From IMG/VR virus record IMGVR_UViG_2548876959_000005, positions 1 through 7,862 of that record: DNA of 7,862 nucleotides, one strand, 5' to 3'. A model generated the notes under the pieces. It ran no database searches and had not been told where the DNA came from. It saw only the letters and a list, made by a program, of their open reading frames with translations. Positions 66-7,862 of this stretch are shown in pieces. The position numbers and the translations under genes are program-made. Every line of letters starts with the position of its first letter. Position 1 is the stretch's first letter. Source of the stretch: a virus (lineage: Duplodnaviria > Heunggongvirae > Uroviricota > Caudoviricetes).

Positions 66-536
66 CTAATAAAATACCCAATTTTCTGTTTCTTGGTTGT
101 GCCCAAAGTTATATTCAATATCTGGTGTTGATGTATCAATATTCTTCATCCCATCAACAAGAGTTGATACAACAGCCAAATCTTGTTTGATTCTCATTAA
201 ATGGTATTTCTTCCGGCGCAATAAACTCTCAATGGCAAGTTTCTTCGTTGGGAATGCAAAAGATCTTTCTGCATTTTTTGCTACTTTCTTAATTGCATAT
301 CTATTTCTCCTTTGTTTCCATTCCTGTAACCACTGATTTGGTGCTGGTTTAAAATTAACAATCCAATGCGCAGGAACCAACCATGCATAATGCTCTGTCT
401 GATGAAAAGCTATATATTGAAGTGCGAATATTTTTATCCCATCTTCTTCAACTGTCGCCTGGAATCTCCAGAAAACAGGCATTCCATCATGTTCAGTTTC
501 TGATTCAGGAAAAGGTACGCTCCATGATTTTGTCAT
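66..536 (-). CDS. Hypothetical 156-aa protein, second gene of the pL operon, immediately downstream of N
   Basis: Intact ORF on the minus strand. Its ATG (534-536) lies 8 nt after the N stop codon (545-547), and a GAGGTG ribosome-binding site overlaps that stop, so it is tightly coupled to N. No family recognised from the sequence; Trp/His-rich, soluble-looking. Confidence 0.6.
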   Translation of the reverse strand: MTKSWSVPFPESETEHDGMPVFWRFQATVEEDGIKIFALQYIAFHQTEHYAWLVPAHWIVNFKPAPNQWLQEWKQRRNRYAIKKVAKNAERSFAFPTKKLAIESLLRRKKYHLMRIKQDLAVVSTLVDGMKNIDTSTPDIEYNFGHNQETENWVFY

Positions 537-544
537 ATCTCACC

Positions 545-844
545 TCAAATAAGTGGTTTGCTGCCTAATTTCATTTTCTGGCGACCAACACAAGTCACAC
601 CCATTTCACTGCGTGGCTTGCGGTAGTAAATACGGTTCTGTTTACGCTCGACTTCTTCTGCCTTCTTGCAGCGAAGGCTTCCGAGTGATGCTGCTTTATC
701 TGCTCTGACGCAACCAGAGAGCTTTAGCGCAATTATTCGCGCCAGTCGCTGCTCTTGCATTGCCTGTTCACGTTGAGCCTGTCTGCGTGCTCTGCGGCGA
801 TTTCTGGCGTTATCGTCAGCCAGATATGTAATGACTACTGTCAT
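545..844 (-). CDS. N: Antitermination protein N (lambda/phi21 N family)
   Basis: 99-aa ORF with an N-terminal arginine-rich motif (NARNRRRARRQAQREQ) and a C-terminal segment (RIYYRKPRSEMGVTCVGRQKMKLGSKPLI) that matches the conserved C-terminus of lambdoid N proteins as I recall them. GGAGG ribosome-binding site 5-6 nt upstream of the ATG; sits downstream of pL/nutL. Confidence 0.85.
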   Translation of the reverse strand: MTVVITYLADDNARNRRRARRQAQREQAMQEQRLARIIALKLSGCVRADKAASLGSLRCKKAEEVERKQNRIYYRKPRSEMGVTCVGRQKMKLGSKPLI

Positions 845-951
845 GTTGACCTCCGATGATTGACTTTGGCGGTGACGCGCCGGGTGCTTATCTTCCGGTT
901 GCCGTCGTGCAGCTGCACTTCACGTCACCCCAAAGCCAACTACTCTTTGGT

Positions 952-993
952 TCCCGCATTTCGGCGGGACAATCCCATCAATGTTAAAGAGCC
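952..993 (-). promoter_or_regulatory. nutL: nutL: boxA-like element plus boxB hairpin (N utilisation site)
   Basis: Read on the minus strand: GCTCTTTAACA (boxA-like, plus coordinates 982-992), a 12-nt spacer, then TCCCGCCGAAATGCGGGA (plus 952-969; 6-bp stem, 6-nt loop). The hairpin is identical to the nutR boxB at 2650-2667. Located between pL and the N start, as in lambda. Confidence 0.65.
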
Positions 994-1038
994 TGCCAAT
1001 CTGTTCCGTTTGGCTACCAGCGTCCTGCTGATGGCTAA

Positions 1039-1125
1039 AGAATACTGTAGGTATTTTATTGTGTAAATACCCAAGGTATTTATTTTTGATGAAATAATGA
1101 TAAACAAATGAATACAAAGGATATT
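1039..1125 (-). promoter_or_regulatory. pL promoter with three OL operator-like palindromes
   Basis: Three AATAC-N5-(G/A)TATT sites at 1041-1055, 1066-1080 and 1111-1125. On the minus strand, -35 TTTACA (1062-1067) and -10 TATTCT (1039-1044) with a 17-bp spacer, overlapping sites 1 and 2. Orientation is toward N. Confidence 0.55.
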
Positions 1126-1211
1126 TATTTTTTCGGTATCTGCTTGTTCAGTGCTTTTTATGCGGGATATGTGAAGTGGATCCCGATAGCTATTGCTGCC
1201 GGGATTATGGG

Positions 1212-1580
1212 TTAGTCAGCGAAGGTTAAGACGAGAATTACCTTAATGATGTCTGCTACAACAGACACGGCCATAGATAAACCAAAGACGATCCAAGCCA
1301 TAGAGATGTCTTCACTACCATCGTATAGAGTTCCGTAATCACTGGTGTAAGGCGTAAATGTCGCGCCTTGATACAACAGGTATAAGCTTGATCCATAGAG
1401 GATAAATGCAGATATCCCTTGTATTGCTATGACCACTAGAATCATGAAACGAGCTGATCTATGCGCCCAAGCCTGGCTTATTTTTTCTGATAGAGATTTC
1501 GCAATAAAAGCATGCGCTAAGCCGTAAATTGTTGAGATTGCCAACATCCCAAAAAAGCTTGCTATAGCGGTTCCAACCAT
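1212..1580 (-). CDS. Small integral membrane protein (about 3 predicted transmembrane segments) co-transcribed downstream of cI; candidate exclusion or abortive-infection protein
   Basis: 122-aa ORF with three long hydrophobic stretches. GGGGGA ribosome-binding site 6 nt upstream of its ATG. Starts 19 nt after the cI stop, on the same strand, in the position lambda uses for rexA/rexB. Confidence 0.6.
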   Translation of the reverse strand: MVGTAIASFFGMLAISTIYGLAHAFIAKSLSEKISQAWAHRSARFMILVVIAIQGISAFILYGSSLYLLYQGATFTPYTSDYGTLYDGSEDISMAWIVFGLSMAVSVVADIIKVILVLTFAD

Positions 1581-1599
1581 AAGCGTCCCCCTTGCGTGA

Positions 1600-2316
1600 T
1601 CAAACCAGCCTTAGTTTTGTCTCAATTGCAACGCCTATAATCTTGCAGTTTCCATTGATTGGCACGAGAGGCCATGCAGGGTTAAGTCCCTTGAGGTATT
1701 TATTTCCGCCGTCGATTATCAGCTTCTTGAATGTTGCTTCGTTAGAGTCAGAAAGTTTTGCTATGACCAGGCTGCCGTTGATCGCCTCCCTTCCGGTATC
1801 GAAAAGAACGAATGTTCCCTCTGGAATGCTTAACCCAACCGGTGCCGTCATTGAATCACCTTCCACTTTAAGCCAGAACGCATTGCCTTGAATATGCGCG
1901 TCAGACTCAAGCCAAACATCTATGTCTTTAATGGTGTATGGTTCGCATGCTTCACACCACGAGCCAGCCTGGATACTGCTTAACACCGGATACCTCTTTC
2001 CTGCTCTGTATTCCCCTGCATACCTTACGTTGGCATCGCTCTTAAGGCTTTCTGCCTGTTCTGCAACCTTGGCAGCAATTGACTGGCTAAAATCAGCAAT
2101 TGAGACTTGCAACAAACGTGCAAAACCAGATGCGACCTCAACGTTTAGCGCGTTTCTGCCATTAAGATAATGCCCTACCGCTCCTTGGGTGATACCCAGT
2201 TCATCAGCGATTGAGTATTGGGTTATTCCCAATTCTTTCTTTTTTGACTCATACAAAGCCTTAAGCCGCTTAGCGTCTTCGAGCTGTTCTGTCGTCAGTG
2301 ATTTTTTATTTTCCAT
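1600..2316 (-). CDS. cI: cI-type phage repressor (N-terminal HTH, C-terminal LexA-like S24 autopeptidase domain)
   Basis: 238-aa ORF. N-terminus (LTTEQLEDAKRLKALYESKKKELGITQ) resembles lambda cI. Has the Ala-Gly cleavage site (SIQAGSW), the catalytic-serine motif EGDSMTAP and the lysine motif FKKLI. Divergent from cro across an operator region. Confidence 0.9.
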   Translation of the reverse strand: MENKKSLTTEQLEDAKRLKALYESKKKELGITQYSIADELGITQGAVGHYLNGRNALNVEVASGFARLLQVSIADFSQSIAAKVAEQAESLKSDANVRYAGEYRAGKRYPVLSSIQAGSWCEACEPYTIKDIDVWLESDAHIQGNAFWLKVEGDSMTAPVGLSIPEGTFVLFDTGREAINGSLVIAKLSDSNEATFKKLIIDGGNKYLKGLNPAWPLVPINGNCKIIGVAIETKLRLV

Positions 2317-2351
2317 AGCTTAATTCTAATAGCTAAGGTACTTAAACTAAA

Positions 2352-2393
2352 AATACCCTGAGTATTGATTGCTTTGAATACCTGTAGTATTCT
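2352..2393 (+). promoter_or_regulatory. OR operator sites with pR promoter
   Basis: Palindromes AATACCCTGAGTATT (2352-2366) and GAATACCTGTAGTATTC (2376-2392), same consensus as the OL sites. pR -35 TTGATT (2365-2370) and -10 TATTCT (2388-2393) with a 17-bp spacer. GGAGAG ribosome-binding site at 2412-2417 precedes cro. Confidence 0.6.
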
Positions 2394-2422
2394 TTGTTCA
2401 TGGTTAATAACGGAGAGTGCAT

Positions 2423-2617
2423 ATGATTCGAATGACACTTGCCGATTACGCCAAAATCCATGGACAGGCTAAAGCAGCCAGTGACTTTGGTGTAATCCAG
2501 TGCGCTATCAGCAAGGCCATTCTGGCAGGCCGTAACATTATGGTTACGGTAAAGCCTGATGGCAGTGTGATTGGAGAGGAAGTTCGTCCTTTCCCAAGCA
2601 ACAAGAAAAACAAATAG
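2423..2617 (+). CDS. cro: Cro repressor
   Basis: Small ORF divergent from cI. Sequence ([39 protein letters not shown]...PFPSNKK) is clearly related to lambda Cro. ATG at 2423 chosen for its 6-nt spacing from the ribosome-binding site; the GTG at 2417 in the ORF track is an alternative. Confidence 0.85.
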
Positions 2618-2623
2618 TAACAC

Positions 2624-2667
2624 CGCTCTTTAACAGTCATGGTCCTCATTCCCGCCGAAATGCGGGA
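2624..2667 (+). promoter_or_regulatory. nutR: nutR: boxA plus boxB hairpin
   Basis: CGCTCTTTAACA (2624-2635) closely matches the boxA consensus. After a 14-nt spacer comes TCCCGCCGAAATGCGGGA (2650-2667), a 6-bp stem with a 6-nt loop. Lies between cro and cII, as in lambda. Confidence 0.7.
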
Positions 2668-2674
2668 ATACAAC

Positions 2675-2700
2675 GCGCATAAGTTGATGCGCATAACTTC
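2675..2700 (+). terminator. Possible tR1-like hairpin or pause site downstream of nutR
   Basis: GCGCAT (2675-2680) pairs with ATGCGC (2687-2692) around a 6-nt loop, followed by a moderately T-rich stretch (ATAACTTCTTATTTGTT). Position matches lambda tR1; not a strong intrinsic terminator. Confidence 0.3.
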
Positions 2701-2725
2701 TTATTTGTTAAGGAAATACTTACAT

Positions 2726-3019
2726 ATGGTTCGTGCAAACAAACGCAACGAGGCTCTAAGAATCGAGAGTGCGTTGCTTAACAAAATCGCAATGCTTGGA
2801 ACTGAGAAGACAGCGGAAGCTGTGGGAGTTGATAAGTCGCAGATCAGCAGGTGGAAGAGGGACTGGATTCCAAAGTTCTCAATGCTGCTTGCTGTTCTTG
2901 AATGGGGTGTCGTCGACGACGACATGGCTCGATTGGCACGACAAGTTGCTTCGATTCTCACCAATAAAAAACGCCCGGCGGCAACCGAGCGTTCTGAACA
3001 AATCCAGATGGAATTTTAA
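2726..3019 (+). CDS. cII: Transcriptional activator cII
   Basis: 97-aa ORF (MVRANKRNEALRIESALLNK...ERSEQIQMEF) that I recall as nearly identical to lambda cII. AAGGA ribosome-binding site upstream. The track ORF beginning at 2639 is a spurious 5' extension that runs through nutR. Confidence 0.9.
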   Translation: MVRANKRNEALRIESALLNKIAMLGTEKTAEAVGVDKSQISRWKRDWIPKFSMLLAVLEWGVVDDDMARLARQVASILTNKKRPAATERSEQIQMEF

Positions 3020-3041
3020 TAACATCCAACGAGGTAATTAT

Positions 3042-3314
3042 ATGCGAAACAAAGGCTTTAATCCACCTGATACACACAAAGAAGCCAAGCGTTTGCGCTT
3101 CCTTCGTTCCATTGATGAAAGAACTCAAATCTCTTTTGTGAAAGTTGCCAGAACTGAGCTTCTGAAGGCTGAGGCGAGGGCGTTGCTCCCGTCTCTACCA
3201 AAAGAGGAGGGATATACGTTCATTCCAAACGCATTTCTGGAAAAGCTGCTCAAAGAAGACATATCCGTAAGTCAGTTTAACGATGTTCTTAAGGTCTTTC
3301 GTCAAGGCAGGTAG
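3042..3314 (+). CDS. Hypothetical 90-aa protein inserted between cII and O
   Basis: ORF with a GAGGT ribosome-binding site 7 nt before the ATG at 3042; its stop is 2 nt before the O start. Basic and helical-looking (MRNKGFNPPDTHKEAKRLRFLRSIDERTQ...). The track ORF from 2769 is an out-of-frame overlap with cII; the real start is probably 3042. Confidence 0.55.
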   Translation: MRNKGFNPPDTHKEAKRLRFLRSIDERTQISFVKVARTELLKAEARALLPSLPKEEGYTFIPNAFLEKLLKEDISVSQFNDVLKVFRQGR

Positions 3315-3316
3315 TT

Positions 3317-4264
3317 ATGAGCAATACAGCAAAAATCTACGATTTCAGCGCCGCACACGAGCGCAGGAGCAACAGGATGGAGAACCAGAAAACTGGTTAC
3401 ATTCCGTTGTACCGGAGCATTCTGAAACAGTCATGGGCGAAAGATGTTTATCTTCGCACCCTGTGGGAAAACCTTCTCCTGAATGCCGCCAGAAAGCCAT
3501 ACAAAGCGAATTTCAAAGGTCATGAATGGCATCTGCAACCCGGTCAACTGGTTGTGACAGCAGCTGATTTAGGTCTTCAGTTATGCGACAGACATGGCAA
3601 GCCAGCAAGCCGTGATCAGGTTGAGCGGATGCTTCAGGTTTTTGTGAAAGAGGGGATGATCTCCATTGATGGAGAGAAGCAAAAAGGTCGTGTGATAACC
3701 ATCACAAATTACCATGAATATGCTCAAAAAATGGACAATTTACCCGCACATGAAGCCGCACAAACAACCGCACATGATGCCGCACATGGCGAAGCCAGTA
3801 ATGGCGCGGCTTTCAGCGCACATGCCGCACATGAAAGCGCACATGAAGCCGCACAAACAACCGCACATCATGAACAAGAAGGTATTAACAAGAATATAAA
3901 TAATACCCCCCTACCCCCCAATGGGGGAGGCGATGGGCAGGTTAAACCTGAACGTCGCAAGGCAGAACGAATCGACTACGAATCCTTCCTGAACGCCTAC
4001 AACACCGAAGTCGGTGACAGACTGCCACACGCTGTTGCGGTCAACGAGAAACGCAAACGCCGCCTGAAGAAAATCATCCCGCAACTGAAAACGCCAAACG
4101 TGGACGGTTTCAGAGCGTATGTCAGGGCGTTTGTGCATCAGGCCAAGCCGTTTTACTTCGGAGACAACGACACGGGCTGGACAGCTGATTTTGATTACCT
4201 GCTGAGGGAAGATTCGTTAACTGGAGTACGGGAAGGGAAGTTTGCAGACAGGGGGATTGCATGA
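3317..4264 (+). CDS. O: Replication initiator protein, O-like (origin-binding N-terminal domain, repeat linker, C-terminal domain)
   Basis: 315-aa ORF starting MSNTAKI, like lambda O. Internal repeat-encoded linker ([10 protein letters not shown]...) contains the iterons. C-terminal motif [10 protein letters not shown]. Its stop overlaps the helicase start (ATGA at 4261-4264). Confidence 0.8.
3744..3905 (+). repeat. Putative replication origin inside the O gene: about 9 iteron copies followed by an AT-rich segment
   Basis: Tandem units of roughly 12 bp (CCGCACATGAAG / CCGCACAAACAA / CCGCACATGATG / CCGCACATGGCG) at 3744-3791, then five more at 3817-3872. Includes a 31-bp direct repeat (3745-3775 and 3839-3869). 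Followed by AT-rich AACAAGAAGGTATTAACAAGAATATAAATAATA (3873-3905) and then a C-run/G-run element. Confidence 0.65.
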
Positions 4265-5637
4265 GACAGGATATCGAAGCGAGCGTTATCGGTGGCCTGC
4301 TGATTGGTGGATTAACACCAACTGCCAGTGACGTTCTGGCAACGCTTGAGCCGGAAGCGTTTTCAATTCCGCTCTACCGGAAAGCCTTCGAGGTTATCCG
4401 CAAGCAGGCGCGAAACAGAAAACTAATCGACGCGATGATGGTTGCCGAGGCGTGCGGAGAGGAGCATTTCACGTCAATCCTGATGACCAGCAAAAACTGC
4501 CCGAGCGCCGCAAACCTGAAGGGATATGCCGGAATGGTCGCGGATAACTATCACCGCCGTCTGGTGCTGGAAATCATGGATGAAATGCGTGAACCAATTC
4601 AGAGCGGAACCATCGACGCATCGAGTCAGGCGATGGATGAGCTTGTAAAGCGTCTTTCAGCCATCAGAAAGCCCCGTGACGAGGTTAAACCGGTACGGTT
4701 AGGGGAAATCATTACTGACTACACTGACACGCTTGACAGGCGTCTGAGGAACGGAGAAGAGTCAGATACCCTGAAGACCGGAATCGAAGAACTTGATGCC
4801 ATCACCGGAGGGATGAACGCGGAAGACCTGGTGATAATCGCTGCTCGTCCTGGTATGGGGAAAACAGAACTGGCGCTGAAGATTGCCGAAGGCGTTGCAA
4901 GCCGCGTTATTCCTGGTTCTGACGTCCGGCGCGGAGTATTGATTTTCTCAATGGAAATGAGCGCATTGCAGATTGCAGAGCGAAGTATTGCCAACGCCGG
5001 GAGGATGTCGGTTAGCGTGCTGCGAAATCCTGCATCGATGGATGACGAAGGCTGGGCGCGTGTTGCTAACGGCATGAGTCAGCTTGCAGATTTGGATGTA
5101 TGGGTAGTCGATGCCTCGCGGTTATCGGTCGAAGAAATACGCTCAATCGCAGAACGGCATAAACAGGAAAATCCAAACCTGTCACTCATCATGGCGGATT
5201 ATCTTGGCCTGATTGAGAAGCCGAAAGCAGATCGCAACGACCTCGCAATTGCTCACATCTCCAGAAGCCTGAAGGCGATGGCGAAAGACCTGAAAACGCC
5301 AGTTATCTCCCTAAGTCAGCTTTCGCGCGATGTTGAGAAGCGACCAAATAAACGACCGACAAACGCAGATTTGCGTGATTCAGGAAGCATTGAACAGGAC
5401 GCAGACTCAATCATCATGCTCTATCGGGAAGCGGTATATGACGAGAACAGTAGCGCCGCGCCATTTGCTGAAATCATCGTGACGAAAAACCGTTTTGGCT
5501 CGCTTGGTACGGTTTACCAGCGGTTCTGTAACGGACACTTTGTGGCATGTGACCAGGATGAAGCCAGACAGATTTGCACAGCATCAAATGCACCTGCTGC
5601 GCGTGGCAGACGATATGCACAAGGGGCTGACGTATGA
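4261..5637 (+). CDS. Replicative DNA helicase, DnaB family (phage-encoded)
   Basis: 458-aa ORF with a Walker A motif (AARPGMGKT), a Walker B-like region (LIMADYLGL) and an [10 protein letters not shown] arginine-finger-type motif typical of DnaB-family helicases. Start overlaps the O stop. Confidence 0.9.
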
Positions 5638-5933: not shown

Positions 5934-6311
5934 ATGGACGAATCAAGAAAGCAGTTTGAAGAAAGTTGGTTGCGACGTGGGGGCGAATCTTCAGACCTTA
6001 TCCGTTACCCTGAAAATCACCATGAAATTGGCAGCGGTAATATTGGTGGTCAATACGTGATGGACGATGTTCAAGGCCACTGGCAAACGTGGCAGGCATC
6101 GCGAGCAGCTATTGAACTGGATATCGACTGGCCCGAGTCGAATGACGACTTCTGGAAAGATGGTGAAGAAGGCGCTTATGCGATGGGCTATATGGATGGG
6201 CGTGACAAAACGGTAATTGTAGTAATGAAAGCTATCAGAGCCGCTGGAATTAAAGAGAAGAATTTCGATGAAGCAAATATACATGCTTCGCAACGAAGCA
6301 ATCAGAAATAA
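5934..6311 (+). CDS. Hypothetical acidic 125-aa protein
   Basis: ORF with a GAGGG ribosome-binding site 8 nt upstream of the ATG. Acidic and Trp-rich (DIDWPESNDDFWKDGEEGAY). 3' end overlaps the ninB start by 44 nt. No family recognised. Confidence 0.55.
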   Translation: MDESRKQFEESWLRRGGESSDLIRYPENHHEIGSGNIGGQYVMDDVQGHWQTWQASRAAIELDIDWPESNDDFWKDGEEGAYAMGYMDGRDKTVIVVMKAIRAAGIKEKNFDEANIHASQRSNQK

Positions 6312-6714
6312 CGCTATAGACGCAATACTCTCACTTCCGATCGACGACAAGTCACCTCACGAAGTCCACGTCAAAGAACCTAAGCGAACCAAAGCGCAGA
6401 ACGACCGTATGTGGCCGATGCTTCAGGACGTTTCCCGTCAGGTGCTATGGCATGGTCAACGGCTGGCGCCGGAAGACTGGAAAGACCTGTTCACTGCCCT
6501 GTGGCTTAAGACCAAAAAATTGGAGCAACGAAGTGTGCCTGGTATCGATGGTGGTGTTGTCATGCTTGGCGTGCGTACCAGCAAAATGCGAAAGGCCAGC
6601 ATGACTGAGCTTATCGAAATCATGTTCTGGTTCGGCTCAGAGCGCAACGTGCGGTGGAGTGATGACTCCCGGCGAGAGTATGAATGGTCACAACGAAAAG
6701 GGAAGGCTGCATGA
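6268..6714 (+). CDS. ninB: NinB/Orf-family recombination protein
   Basis: 148-aa ORF that aligns by eye with lambda NinB over conserved blocks (QNDRMWPMLQDVSRQVLWHG, SERNVRWSDDSRREYEW). Its stop overlaps the next start (ATGA). Confidence 0.8.
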   Translation: MKQIYMLRNEAIRNNAIDAILSLPIDDKSPHEVHVKEPKRTKAQNDRMWPMLQDVSRQVLWHGQRLAPEDWKDLFTALWLKTKKLEQRSVPGIDGGVVMLGVRTSKMRKASMTELIEIMFWFGSERNVRWSDDSRREYEWSQRKGKAA

Positions 6715-7238
6715 CTATCAAATCAAATACGCCAGCACACGACAAGGACTGCTGGCAAACGCCGCTTTGGCTTTTTGATGCACTGGATATTGAGTTTGGA
6801 TTCTGGCTGGATTCGGCAGCGAGCGACAAAAATGCTCTGTGCGCTCACTGGCTAACTGAGGCTGACGACGCGCTAAATTCTGAGTGGATAAGCCACGGTG
6901 CAATCTGGAATAACCCACCGTACAGCAATATCAGGCCGTGGGTGGAAAAAGCCGCTGAGCAGTGCATACAACAGCGACAGACGGTAGTGATGCTTGTGCC
7001 AGAGGATATGTCTGTCGGATGGTTCAGCAAGGCTCTGGAGAGTGTTGACGAAGTTCGTATTATCACTGATGGACGGATTAATTTTATCGAACCATCGACA
7101 GGGCTGGAGAAGAAGGGAAACAGCAAAGGCTCCATGCTGCTGATTTGGCGACCGTTCATTAGTCCTCGACGGATGTTTACTACCGTATCCAAAGCGGCAT
7201 TGATGGCGATCGGGCAGGGCGTCAGGAGGGCGGCATGA
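6711..7238 (+). CDS. Phage DNA N6-adenine methyltransferase (Dam family)
   Basis: ORF with a [13 protein letters not shown] motif and the catalytic NPPYS motif typical of phage Dam-type methyltransferases. Start set at ATG 6711 (GGGAAGG ribosome-binding site, overlaps the ninB stop) rather than the upstream ATG 6684 in the track. Confidence 0.8.
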
Positions 7239-7413: not shown

Positions 7414-7773
7414 ATGGATTATTCACAGTTAAGTGATTTTGAAATTAACGTGGCGGTATTCGAAGCCATTCATAACGGATCACCGGATTACAAAGAAGGT
7501 GAGAATGGCGCGATGGTGTTTATCTCATTTGAGGGAGACATTGTAAACGGAGACGCAGTTGAAGTAGAAGTTGAGCGCGGATCCTTTAACCCATGCGCAA
7601 ACCCAGCAGACGCATGGCCGATTATTGAAAAATACAGGATTAGCATTATCAATCTCGATGAAGACGAGTGGGGTGCACGCGGTGTGGCCTACTGTAAATC
7701 TAAGCGAGCTATACATGAAAATCCCCTCCGCGCCGCCATGATTGTCTTTCTCATGATGCAGAGAATCCAATAA
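7414..7773 (+). CDS. Hypothetical nin-region protein (119 aa)
   Basis: ORF with a GAGGA ribosome-binding site 7 nt upstream of ATG 7414. ATG 7408, which overlaps the ninE stop, is an alternative; the track's 7372 start is unlikely. Acidic; its stop overlaps the ninF start (TAATG). Confidence 0.6.
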   Translation: MDYSQLSDFEINVAVFEAIHNGSPDYKEGENGAMVFISFEGDIVNGDAVEVEVERGSFNPCANPADAWPIIEKYRISIINLDEDEWGARGVAYCKSKRAIHENPLRAAMIVFLMMQRIQ

Positions 7774-7862
7774 TGCTTAGCCCATCCCAATCCCTTCAAT
7801 ACCAGAAAGAAAGCGTCGAGCGAGCTTTAACGTGCGCTAACTGCGGTCAGAAGCTGCATGTG
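7773..7862 (+). CDS. ninF: NinF-like protein, 5' portion (runs off the window end)
   Basis: Hand translation from ATG 7773 gives MLSPSQSLQYQKESVERALTCANCGQKLHV, which matches my recollection of the lambda NinF N-terminus (Cys-x-x-Cys zinc-ribbon-like start). Truncated by the window edge. Confidence 0.6.
   Translation, partial: MLSPSQSLQYQKESVERALTCANCGQKLHV

What the first reader, a model, noticed from the sequence alone, without database searches (positions are those of the whole stretch)
2624..2667. nutR with a boxB hairpin identical to the one in nutL
boxA (CGCTCTTTAACA) is followed 14 nt later by the hairpin TCCCGCCGAAATGCGGGA. The same 18 nt occur in reverse complement at 952-969, so the N protein here has matching recognition sites on both operons. 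The loop CGAAAU differs from the lambda boxB loop I recall, consistent with the distinct arginine-rich motif in this N.
Basis: seen in the sequence. Interest (0 to 1): 0.45.

Follow-up and report, generated by a model that had tools for sequence, protein, structure and literature searches.

The report
HK620-type nutR/nutL antitermination sites
These are the two N-utilisation (nut) RNA sites of a lambda-like prophage. They are identical to sites already annotated in coliphage HK620 and occur in about 9% of complete E. coli genomes, so the finding is correct but ordinary.

Summary
boxA CGCTCTTTAACA (2624-2635) is followed after 14 nt by the hairpin TCCCGCCGAAATGCGGGA (2650-2667). The same 18 nt lie in reverse complement at 952-969, 12 nt downstream (in the leftward sense) of a second boxA (982-993). 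The window is a lambdoid immunity region: N, nutL, pL, cI, cro, nutR, cII, O, P.

Both sites are 100% identical to the features annotated "nutL/nutR; putative" in the HK620 GenBank record AF335538.

- 77 of 80 loci chosen only for carrying this N have the exact hairpin on both operons. They span at least 8 unrelated cI/cro modules and two different cII genes.
- Behind one shared pL leader and boxA, three boxB types occur, each with its own arginine-rich motif.
- Lambda has the same cII but a different nutR and a different N.

The likely mechanism is the standard one: the N arginine-rich motif binds the boxB RNA, NusB/NusE bind boxA, and RNA polymerase becomes termination-resistant. Binding itself is untested.

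The loop C[GAAA]U may be a GNRA tetraloop closed by a C·U mismatch, by analogy with the phage 21 C[UAAC]C loop.

Novelty: already known as an annotation. Interest is low.

The parts
2624..2635 (+). nutR boxA (CGCTCTTTAACA)
   Evidence: Identical to the start of the HK620 'nutR' feature. Inferred to be the NusB/NusE-binding element by analogy with lambda (PMC8632103).
2636..2649 (+). nutR spacer (14 nt, GTCATGGTCCTCAT)
   Evidence: Its 5' part resembles the phage 21 nutR spacer. It is polymorphic among related loci.
2650..2667 (+). nutR boxB hairpin (UCCCGC-CGAAAU-GCGGGA; the stem can extend to 2649-2668)
   Evidence: Exact copy in 77 of 80 N-selected loci. Lies within the HK620 nutR feature.
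2675..2692 (+). Second hairpin (GCGCAT-AAGTTG-ATGCGC) in the nutR-to-cII spacer. It is part of the conserved ~100-nt nutR module and lies just downstream of the 7-nt feature HK620 labels tR1; its role is untested.
   Evidence: Fold. Conserved with the module across different cro and cII genes. HK620 annotates tR1 at the window equivalent of 2669-2675, immediately after nutR. Aligns with the hairpin region downstream of lambda nutR.
982..993 (-). nutL boxA (GGCTCTTTAACA)
   Evidence: The leader and boxA are shared with phage 21 nutL.
970..981 (-). nutL spacer (12 nt, TTGATGGGATTG)
952..969 (-). nutL boxB hairpin, identical to the nutR boxB
545..844 (-). N antiterminator gene (99 aa). It is a mosaic: residues 1-64 are HK620-type, and residues 38-99 are 97% identical to phage 21 N.
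   Evidence: Pfam N_peptide matches below its threshold (21.9 versus 27.9 bits). The C-terminus aligns to lambda N residues 74-110 of PDB 6GOV.
764..811 (-). Codons 12-27 of N: the arginine-rich motif NARNRRRARRQAQREQ, the proposed boxB-binding helix
   Evidence: The core NARNRRRARR follows essentially every nutL copy of this boxB that has enough downstream sequence.
1039..1067 (-). pL candidate (TTTACA-17-TATTCT), the promoter of the nutL-N transcript
   Evidence: Coincides with the pL feature of HK620 once coordinates are mapped.
2365..2400 (+). pR, mapped from the HK620 annotation; the promoter of the cro-nutR-cII transcript
   Evidence: HK620 pR at L001 3211-3246, with an offset of 846 to the window. 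The consensus scan did not detect it independently.
2423..2617 (+). cro (Pfam Cro), upstream of nutR
2726..3019 (+). cII (lambda-type, 97 aa), the first gene downstream of nutR

Best explanation
These are the two N-utilisation sites of an HK620-immunity lambdoid (pro)phage. pL and pR transcribe outward from the cI/cro region. Each early transcript carries a linear boxA (GCUCUUUAACA) followed 12-14 nt later by the same boxB hairpin (6-bp G+C-rich stem, loop CGAAAU). The phage N protein is encoded about 110 nt downstream of nutL. Its N-terminal arginine-rich helix (NARNRRRARRQAQREQ) is inferred to bind the boxB loop and upper stem. NusB/NusE are inferred to bind boxA, and NusA the spacer and boxB. 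The N C-terminus (phage 21/lambda-type) would then convert RNA polymerase into a termination-resistant complex that reads through tR1, tL and downstream terminators. The hexaloop is probably a GAAA (GNRA) tetraloop flanked by a C·U mismatch. That would give it the architecture of the phage 21 loop C[UAAC]C with lambda-like loop chemistry. Shown here: the sequence, position, strand logic, hairpin, identity to the annotated HK620 sites, and strict co-occurrence of this boxB with this motif. Inferred: binding, Nus factor use, antitermination and the loop fold.
For: Anatomy and chance.

Gene context (N, cI, cro, cII, O, DnaB-type P, NinB).

Identity to the annotated HK620 nutL/nutR.

N homology: residues 38-99 are 97% identical to phage 21 N, and the C-terminus aligns to lambda N in the 6GOV antitermination complex.

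Modular co-occurrence:
- 77 of 80 N-selected IMG/VR loci carry the exact 18-mer once on each strand, in divergent orientation. They span at least 8 unrelated inter-nut (cI/cro) clusters, at least 5 cro C-termini and 2 cII genes.
- Phage CUS-3 has an unrelated cI and cro but the same N and both boxB copies.
- In 125 sites selected only by the shared pL leader and boxA, there are three boxB types: HK620-type 96, phage 21-type 27, a third type 2. Each pairs with its own motif and with a boxB of its own type at nutR, never the HK620 hairpin; in the third type the two copies are identical.
- Lambda shares cII and its ribosome-binding site but has its own nutR and N.

The loop is asymmetric and reads CGAAAU in the transcribed sense at both sites, as expected for an RNA element.

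Mechanistic template: PMC8632103. The phage 21 CUAACC loop is a C-C-flanked GNRA-like fold (PMC12550061). P22 nutR reads C[GACAA]C.
Against: There is no experimental evidence for this N/boxB pair. I found no paper testing it, and GenBank calls the sites 'putative'. There is no covariation support for the stem. The hairpin is invariant in all relatives, and a search for stem variants carrying the same loop found none. All relatives are closely related E. coli prophages, so conservation alone is weak evidence. Rfam has no matching family. The Pfam N_peptide hit is below its threshold. The GNRA-plus-C·U loop fold is an analogy only.
Confidence: 0.9

Rival explanations
1. The conserved nutR and nutL segments are mainly DNA-level 'boundary' or linker sequences. 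They would persist because they mediate homologous recombination between lambdoid modules, or bind a DNA-binding protein as palindromes, rather than act as RNA sites for N.
For: The ~100-nt nutR module lies exactly at the junction between variable cro and variable cII modules. CUS-3 annotates the N-to-cI interval as 'bsq5; boundary sequence'. The stem is a perfect DNA palindrome.
Against: The asymmetric loop and the boxA-to-boxB order follow the direction of transcription at both sites in every locus. The boxB type follows the N motif type even when the flanking leader and boxA (phage 21) or cII (lambda) are the same. The site lies outside the annotated operators. A linker role could coexist with nut function but would not replace it.
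Confidence: 0.04
2. The hairpins are transcription terminators, attenuators or Rho-entry elements in their own right (tR1/tL-type signals), not N-binding sites.
For: The stem is G+C-rich at -9.7 kcal/mol. HK620 annotates tR1 immediately after nutR. In lambda, the rut sites flank boxB.
Against: No U-tract follows either copy (AUACAACG and ACCAAAGA). The terminator scan does not call them. An identical hairpin placed after a boxA on both operons, paired with a specific N motif, is not explained by termination alone.
Confidence: 0.02
3. The hairpins act without N. They might be put-like RNAs that modify RNA polymerase directly (as in HK022), or sites for a host or other phage factor such as a Nun-type excluder.
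For: N binding has not been demonstrated. Some lambdoid phages, such as HK022, dispense with N (own knowledge).
Against: An intact N gene with an arginine-rich motif follows nutL in essentially every locus that has enough sequence. The element is a single short hairpin with a boxA, not the two-stem put architecture (own knowledge). The motif and boxB change together.
Confidence: 0.03

Closest known systems
Coliphage HK620 nutL and nutR (GenBank AF335538 features 7753-7794 and 9423-9468; Clark et al. 2001, J Mol Biol 311:657)
   Same: 100% identical boxA, spacers and boxB at both sites. Same cI, cro and hkaS-like gene. The same N residues 1-64 at 97% identity.
   Different: The window's N has a phage 21/lambda-type C-terminus instead of HK620's ...LPNVAIYAAGYRKSKQLTAR tail. 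Homology to HK620 ends at the cII start, and the window has a lambda-type cII, as in phage HF4s. The sites are annotated only as 'putative'.
Phage 21 N / nut system (N peptide-boxB NMR structure, PDB 1NYB)
   Same: Identical pL leader and nutL boxA, related spacers, and N residues 38-99 at 97% identity. A 6-7-bp stem carries a hexaloop of the form pyrimidine-NNNN-pyrimidine.
   Different: The boxB sequences differ (UCUCAAC-CUAACC-GUUGAGA at nutL, CACCU-CUAACC-GGGUG at nutR). Phage 21's two boxB stems differ from each other, whereas here they are identical. The motif is GTAKSRYKARRAELIAERR versus NARNRRRARRQAQREQ.
Phage lambda N / nutL / nutR (PDB 1QFQ peptide complex; 6GOV full antitermination complex)
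   Same: The same genome positions and the same cII and ribosome-binding site downstream of nutR. The N C-terminal RNA polymerase-binding segment is homologous. The loop contains GAAA. The motif fits A-x-x-R-R-R-x-R-R.
   Different: Lambda boxB is a 5-bp stem with the pentaloop GAAAA or GAAGA. Lambda boxA is the non-consensus CGCUCUUA. Its spacer is about 9 nt shorter. Lambda N has Trp18, and this N has no aromatic residue at the aligned position (alignment by eye).
Phage P22 gp24 / nut sites (PDB 1A4T)
   Same: Consensus-type boxA (GCUCUUUA). The nutR loop GACAA is flanked by a C·C mismatch, a pyrimidine-pyrimidine closure like the C·U proposed here.
   Different: The loop is the pentaloop GACAA with an extruded C. 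The motif is GNAKTRRHERRRKLAIER. The P22 nutL and nutR stems differ from each other.

Membership tests
Lambdoid N-utilisation (nut) site | Located in the early transcripts: one site between pL and N, the other between cro and cII | tested here: met
   nutL (952-993, - strand) lies between pL (1039-1067) and the N start (844). nutR (2624-2667) lies between the cro stop (2617) and the cII start (2726).
Lambdoid N-utilisation (nut) site | A linear boxA (CGCUCUU(U)A) 5' of boxB on the transcribed strand | tested here: met
   GCTCTTTAACA occurs exactly twice, each 12-14 nt 5' of a hairpin copy in the sense orientation.
Lambdoid N-utilisation (nut) site | boxB: a short G+C-rich hairpin with a 5-6-nt purine-rich loop and no U-tract | tested here: met
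   A 6-bp stem with hexaloop CGAAAU at -9.7 kcal/mol, comparable to the lambda, P22 and phage 21 boxB hairpins (-5.9 to -7.9). No T-run follows.
Lambdoid N-utilisation (nut) site | [quoted passage not shown] | tested here: met
   The 99-aa ORF at 545-844 is 70% identical to phage 21 N. Its C-terminus matches lambda N in 6GOV. Its motif is NARNRRRARR. The Pfam N_peptide hit is sub-threshold.
Lambdoid N-utilisation (nut) site | boxB specificity matches the N motif (co-variation across phages) | tested here: met
   Three boxB types pair with three motif types behind the same leader and boxA. The same pair occurs across at least 8 immunity modules.
Lambdoid N-utilisation (nut) site | N binds boxB RNA, and the site confers N- and Nus-dependent terminator read-through | not testable with these tools
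   Requires binding and reporter assays. No published test was found.
Lambda/P22-class boxB (GNRA-like pentaloop) | A five-nucleotide loop, GAAAA/GAAGA or GACAA, on a 5-bp stem | tested here: not met
   The loop is six nucleotides (CGAAAU). The pentaloop register with a bulged C is 3.4 kcal/mol less stable. The loop does share the GAAA core.
Phage 21-class boxB (hexaloop with a GNRA-like turn closed by a pyrimidine-pyrimidine pair) | Loop CUAACC, in which a C-C pair flanks a UAAC turn | tested here: inconclusive
   The form is the same (Y-NNNN-Y, C[GAAA]U versus C[UAAC]C), but the sequence differs and the fold cannot be determined here.

The most novel reading that the evidence does not exclude
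The HK620-type pair (motif NARNRRRARRQAQREQ with hairpin UCCCGC-C[GAAA]U-GCGGGA) may be a fourth N-peptide/boxB recognition class that has not been characterised structurally. It would be orthogonal to the lambda, P22 and phage 21 pairs. In it, a canonical GNRA tetraloop closed by a C·U mismatch would be read by an arginine-rich helix that lacks lambda's stacking tryptophan. If so, it would add a natural orthogonal peptide-RNA tether and a test case for how motif specificity evolves by cassette exchange within one N scaffold.
Probability: 0.4. Interest if true: 0.3.

Novelty: already known. Interest (0 to 1): 0.15.

Why it matters
As a genome feature it is routine. It marks the start of N-dependent delayed-early expression in a common family of E. 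coli prophages (501 of 5,426 complete genomes), some of them Stx-converting phages.

Its modest value is comparative. The same pL leader, boxA and N C-terminal scaffold carry at least three interchangeable arginine-rich-motif/boxB cassettes. That is a clean natural example of co-evolving peptide-RNA specificity. The HK620-type pair appears never to have been measured biochemically.

It is also an annotation warning. Several records extend cII upstream through nutR.

Tried and rejected
- Rfam scan of the whole window at E <= 1: no hits, so no curated family covers nut sites.
- Stem covariation: a search of IMG/VR for boxA + N{14,24} + (not C)CGAAAT gave 58 loci. None was a stem variant of this hairpin; they were chance matches or other elements, including one P22-type boxB. 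Covariation evidence is therefore unavailable.
- Per-position polymorphism in the N-selected loci: boxB is invariant and the spacers are slightly polymorphic, but diversity is too low to be informative. One indel-shifted sequence blurs the ungapped count.
- Literature: no paper in the library links HK620 to boxB or nut function. The HK620 genome paper, Cocozaki 2008 and Cilley & Williamson 2003 are not held.
- H-19B N, named in the HK620 note as similar, has a different motif (RSRRRER) and resembles HK620 N only in the C-terminus.
- Exceptions were examined and explained. L041 has the N gene but its upstream region is replaced from 13 nt before the ATG. L177 has a foreign insertion inside the nutR boxB. 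L091 has a lone 18-mer in an unrelated context, about what chance predicts for a collection of this size. L064 and L065 lack a nutR copy; their nutL copies lie only about 100 and 1,230 nt from the contig start, so I take them to be cut off by the contig end.
- The intrinsic-terminator reading was rejected: no U-tract, and the scan did not call the hairpins.

Full report
**Observation.**
- On the + strand, CGCTCTTTAACA lies at 2624-2635, a 14-nt spacer at 2636-2649, and TCCCGCCGAAATGCGGGA at 2650-2667.
- The 18-mer occurs exactly twice in the window even when 3 mismatches are allowed: at 2650-2667 (+) and 952-969 (-). The chance expectation is 0.01 copies, and 0 of 200 shuffles reached two.
- The boxA core GCTCTTTAACA also occurs exactly twice, at 2625-2635 (+) and 982-992 (-). 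Each copy is 5' of a hairpin copy when read in the sense of that copy.
- A reverse-complement alignment shows identity over boxA and 19 nt of hairpin. The spacers differ (14 versus 12 nt) and the flanks are unrelated.
- As RNA, the 18-mer folds into a 6-bp stem with the hexaloop CGAAAU at -9.7 kcal/mol (z = -2.9). In nutR the stem can extend to 8 bp.
- A pentaloop register with a bulged C is 3.4 kcal/mol worse.

**Context.**
The window is a lambdoid immunity and early region.
- N: 545-844, - strand.
- A 122-aa membrane ORF: 1212-1580, - strand (hkaS in HK620).
- cI: 1600-2316, - strand (HTH_3 plus Peptidase_S24).
- cro: 2423-2617, + strand (Pfam Cro).
- cII: 2726-3019, + strand (Phage_CII, E = 1.7e-48).
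- O: 3317-4264. A DnaB-type helicase: 4261-5637. NinB: 6268-6714. Dam methylase: 6684-7238.
- A pL-like promoter (TTTACA-17-TATTCT) lies at 1067-1039 on the - strand.

nutL therefore sits between pL and N, and nutR between cro and cII. These are the canonical positions.

**Identity.**
Region 500-3100 is 98-99% identical to phages HF4s, HK620, HK630, HK140, mEpX2 and several Stx-converting phages. The HK620 GenBank record AF335538 carries features 'nutL; putative N-utilization leftward' and 'nutR; putative N-utilization rightward', together with pL, pR, OL1-3, OR1-3 and tR1. Their sequences are GGCTCTTTAACATTGATGGGATTGTCCCGCCGAAATGCGGGA and CGCTCTTTAACAGTCATGGTCCTCATTCCCGCCGAAATGCGGGAAT. They are 100% identical to the window, as are those of mEpX2 and HF4s. 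The finding has therefore been in the public annotation since 2001, as a prediction.

**The N protein.**
The 99-aa N is a mosaic.
- Residues 1-64 match HK620 N at 97%.
- Residues 38-99 match phage 21 N at 97%.
- The last 38 residues align with lambda N residues 74-110 in the 6GOV antitermination complex.
- HK620 N itself carries the same N-terminus on a different tail (...LPNVAIYAAGYRKSKQLTAR).
- The arginine-rich motif NARNRRRARRQAQREQ differs from lambda (AQTRRRERRAEKQAQW), phage 21 (AKSRYKARRAELIAER) and P22 (AKTRRHERRRKLAIER). It keeps the A-x-x-R-x-x-x-R-R frame.

**Does boxB follow N?**
Four tests bear on this.

1. Loci chosen only for encoding this N. Of 80 IMG/VR loci (96-99% identity), 77 have the exact 18-mer once on each strand. 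The arrangement is always divergent, with the copies 1.15-3.4 kb apart.
   - The three exceptions are explained: L041 is rearranged, and L064 and L065 appear to be cut off by the contig end.
   - The inter-nut DNA falls into at least 8 clusters that do not share 15-mers, that is, different cI/cro modules.
   - The ~100-nt nutR module (boxA, spacer, boxB, second hairpin, cII ribosome-binding site) is flanked by at least 5 different cro C-termini and 2 different cII genes.
   - Phage CUS-3 is a named example. Its cI and cro are unrelated, but its N and both boxB copies are the same.
2. Loci chosen by the 18-mer (119 loci). Every nutL-type copy with enough downstream sequence is followed by an N with the NARNRRRARR core or a close variant (NTRN..., NARNSRR..., TAKNRRRERR). 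One locus has an inserted gene between nutL and N.
3. Sites chosen only by the pL leader plus boxA that phage 21 shares (TTGGCAGGCTCTTTAACAT; 125 sites). Three boxB types follow.
   - HK620-type, 96 sites: every identifiable N has the NARNRRRARR motif. An HK620-type boxB lies on the nutR side in 71 of the 73 loci with at least 2.5 kb of upstream sequence.
   - Phage 21-type, 27 sites (TCTCAACCTAACCGTTGAGA): the motif is GTAKSRYKARR, and the nutR boxB is CACCTCTAACCGGGTG in 20 of the 27 (most of the rest lack upstream sequence). None has the HK620-type hairpin.
   - A third type, 2 sites (GGGGATGATTCGTCCCC): the same hairpin at nutL and nutR, with a 67-aa GTG-initiated N whose motif is KAREIRKLERARKHKEATAKRK.
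4. Lambda shares cII and its ribosome-binding site almost base for base with the window. Its nutR and N are nevertheless its own.

boxB therefore follows the N motif. It does not follow the immunity module, the leader and boxA, or cII.

**Mechanism (inferred).**
By the lambda paradigm (PMC8632103):
- the N arginine-rich motif binds the boxB hairpin of the nascent RNA;
- NusB/NusE bind boxA, which lies 5' of it;
- NusA contacts boxB;

Both boxA copies here are the consensus GCUCUUUAACA form. From my own knowledge, this is the E. coli rrn boxA. PMC3177189 notes that lambda boxA9 is identical to the E. coli boxA. Lambda's own boxA is the weaker CGCUCUUA.

The asymmetric loop reads CGAAAU in the transcribed sense at both sites in all loci, as expected for an RNA signal. 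No U-tract follows either copy, so they are not intrinsic terminators.

**Loop architecture (inference).**
- In the phage 21 complex, the CUAACC hexaloop forms a GNRA-like UAAC turn flanked by a C-C pair. The P22 and lambda pentaloops are GNRA folds with one extruded base (PMC12550061).
- P22 nutR reads C[GACAA]C.
- By analogy, C[GAAA]U here would be a true GNRA tetraloop closed by a C·U mismatch. That would be intermediate between the lambda and phage 21 designs.
- This cannot be tested with these tools.

**Limits.**
- I found no experimental test of this pair, and the primary HK620 paper is not held in the library.
- The hairpin never varies among relatives. A search for stem variants with the same loop found none, so there is no covariation evidence.
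- Rfam has no nut family.

**Prevalence and verdict.**
The nutR module is present in 501 of 5,426 complete E. coli genomes.
- The element is an ordinary nut-site pair that is already annotated as putative.
- The only residual novelty is that this specificity class has not been characterised biochemically.

Noticed in passing
window 2639-3019 (+): An in-frame ATG at 2639, inside the nutR spacer, opens a 126-aa ORF that runs through boxB into cII. HF4s, CUS-3 and RefSeq PGAP records annotate this long form as 'CII'. The lambda-identical 97-aa cII starts at 2726, behind AAGGAAAT. The long form is probably an annotation artefact.
   Followed up: partly
window ~851-945 (-), between nutL boxB and the N start codon: The N leader folds into a long, nearly perfect stem (GGCUUUGGGGUGACGUG...CGCGUCACCGCCAAAGUC). 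The whole leader scores z = -3.1. From my own knowledge, this resembles the RNase III-processed N-leader stem of lambda. A diverged version is present in phage 21.
   Followed up: partly
L222 (nutL ~3570-3630) and L226 (~10790-10850): A third boxB type, GGGGATGATTCGTCCCC, follows the same pL leader and boxA and is repeated at nutR. It pairs with a short GTG-initiated 67-aa N (KAREIRKLERARKHKEATAKRK...LPNVALYAAGYRKSKQLTAR).
   Followed up: partly
L177 (nutR side, ~3.4 kb upstream of nutL): The nutR boxB is interrupted after TCCCGCCG by foreign DNA (TGAACCGCCCCGGGTTTCCTGGAGAG...). It looks like the end of an insertion sequence, which would suggest a crippled prophage.
   Followed up: no
L170 (between nutL and N); L097: L170 has a ~190-aa ORF inserted between nutL and N. 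L097 has the exact boxB with a diverged motif (SDTAKNRRRERRAALRDQ), which shows which motif positions tolerate change.
   Followed up: no
window 3745-3872 (+), inside the O gene: Two clusters of 12-nt-spaced repeats (CCGCACATGAAG-like, 6 copies) encode a His/Ala-rich repeat in O. They are probably the replication-origin iterons. HK620 annotates a rep_origin inside its O gene.
   Followed up: partly
window 2968-2995 (-): A strong terminator-like hairpin with a T-run lies on the antisense strand at the 3' end of cII. Its position matches the oop RNA terminator annotated in P22.
   Followed up: no
L173 and L034, downstream of nutL: The N leader is replaced or expanded by simple repeats: (ACGTC)n in L173, and a poly-C run with an N in L034. 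These may be assembly artefacts or hypervariable leader sequence.
   Followed up: no
mEp213 record (H21-H23): The annotation lists two 'antitermination protein N' genes in one phage. The region matches only residues 1-64 of this N.
   Followed up: no
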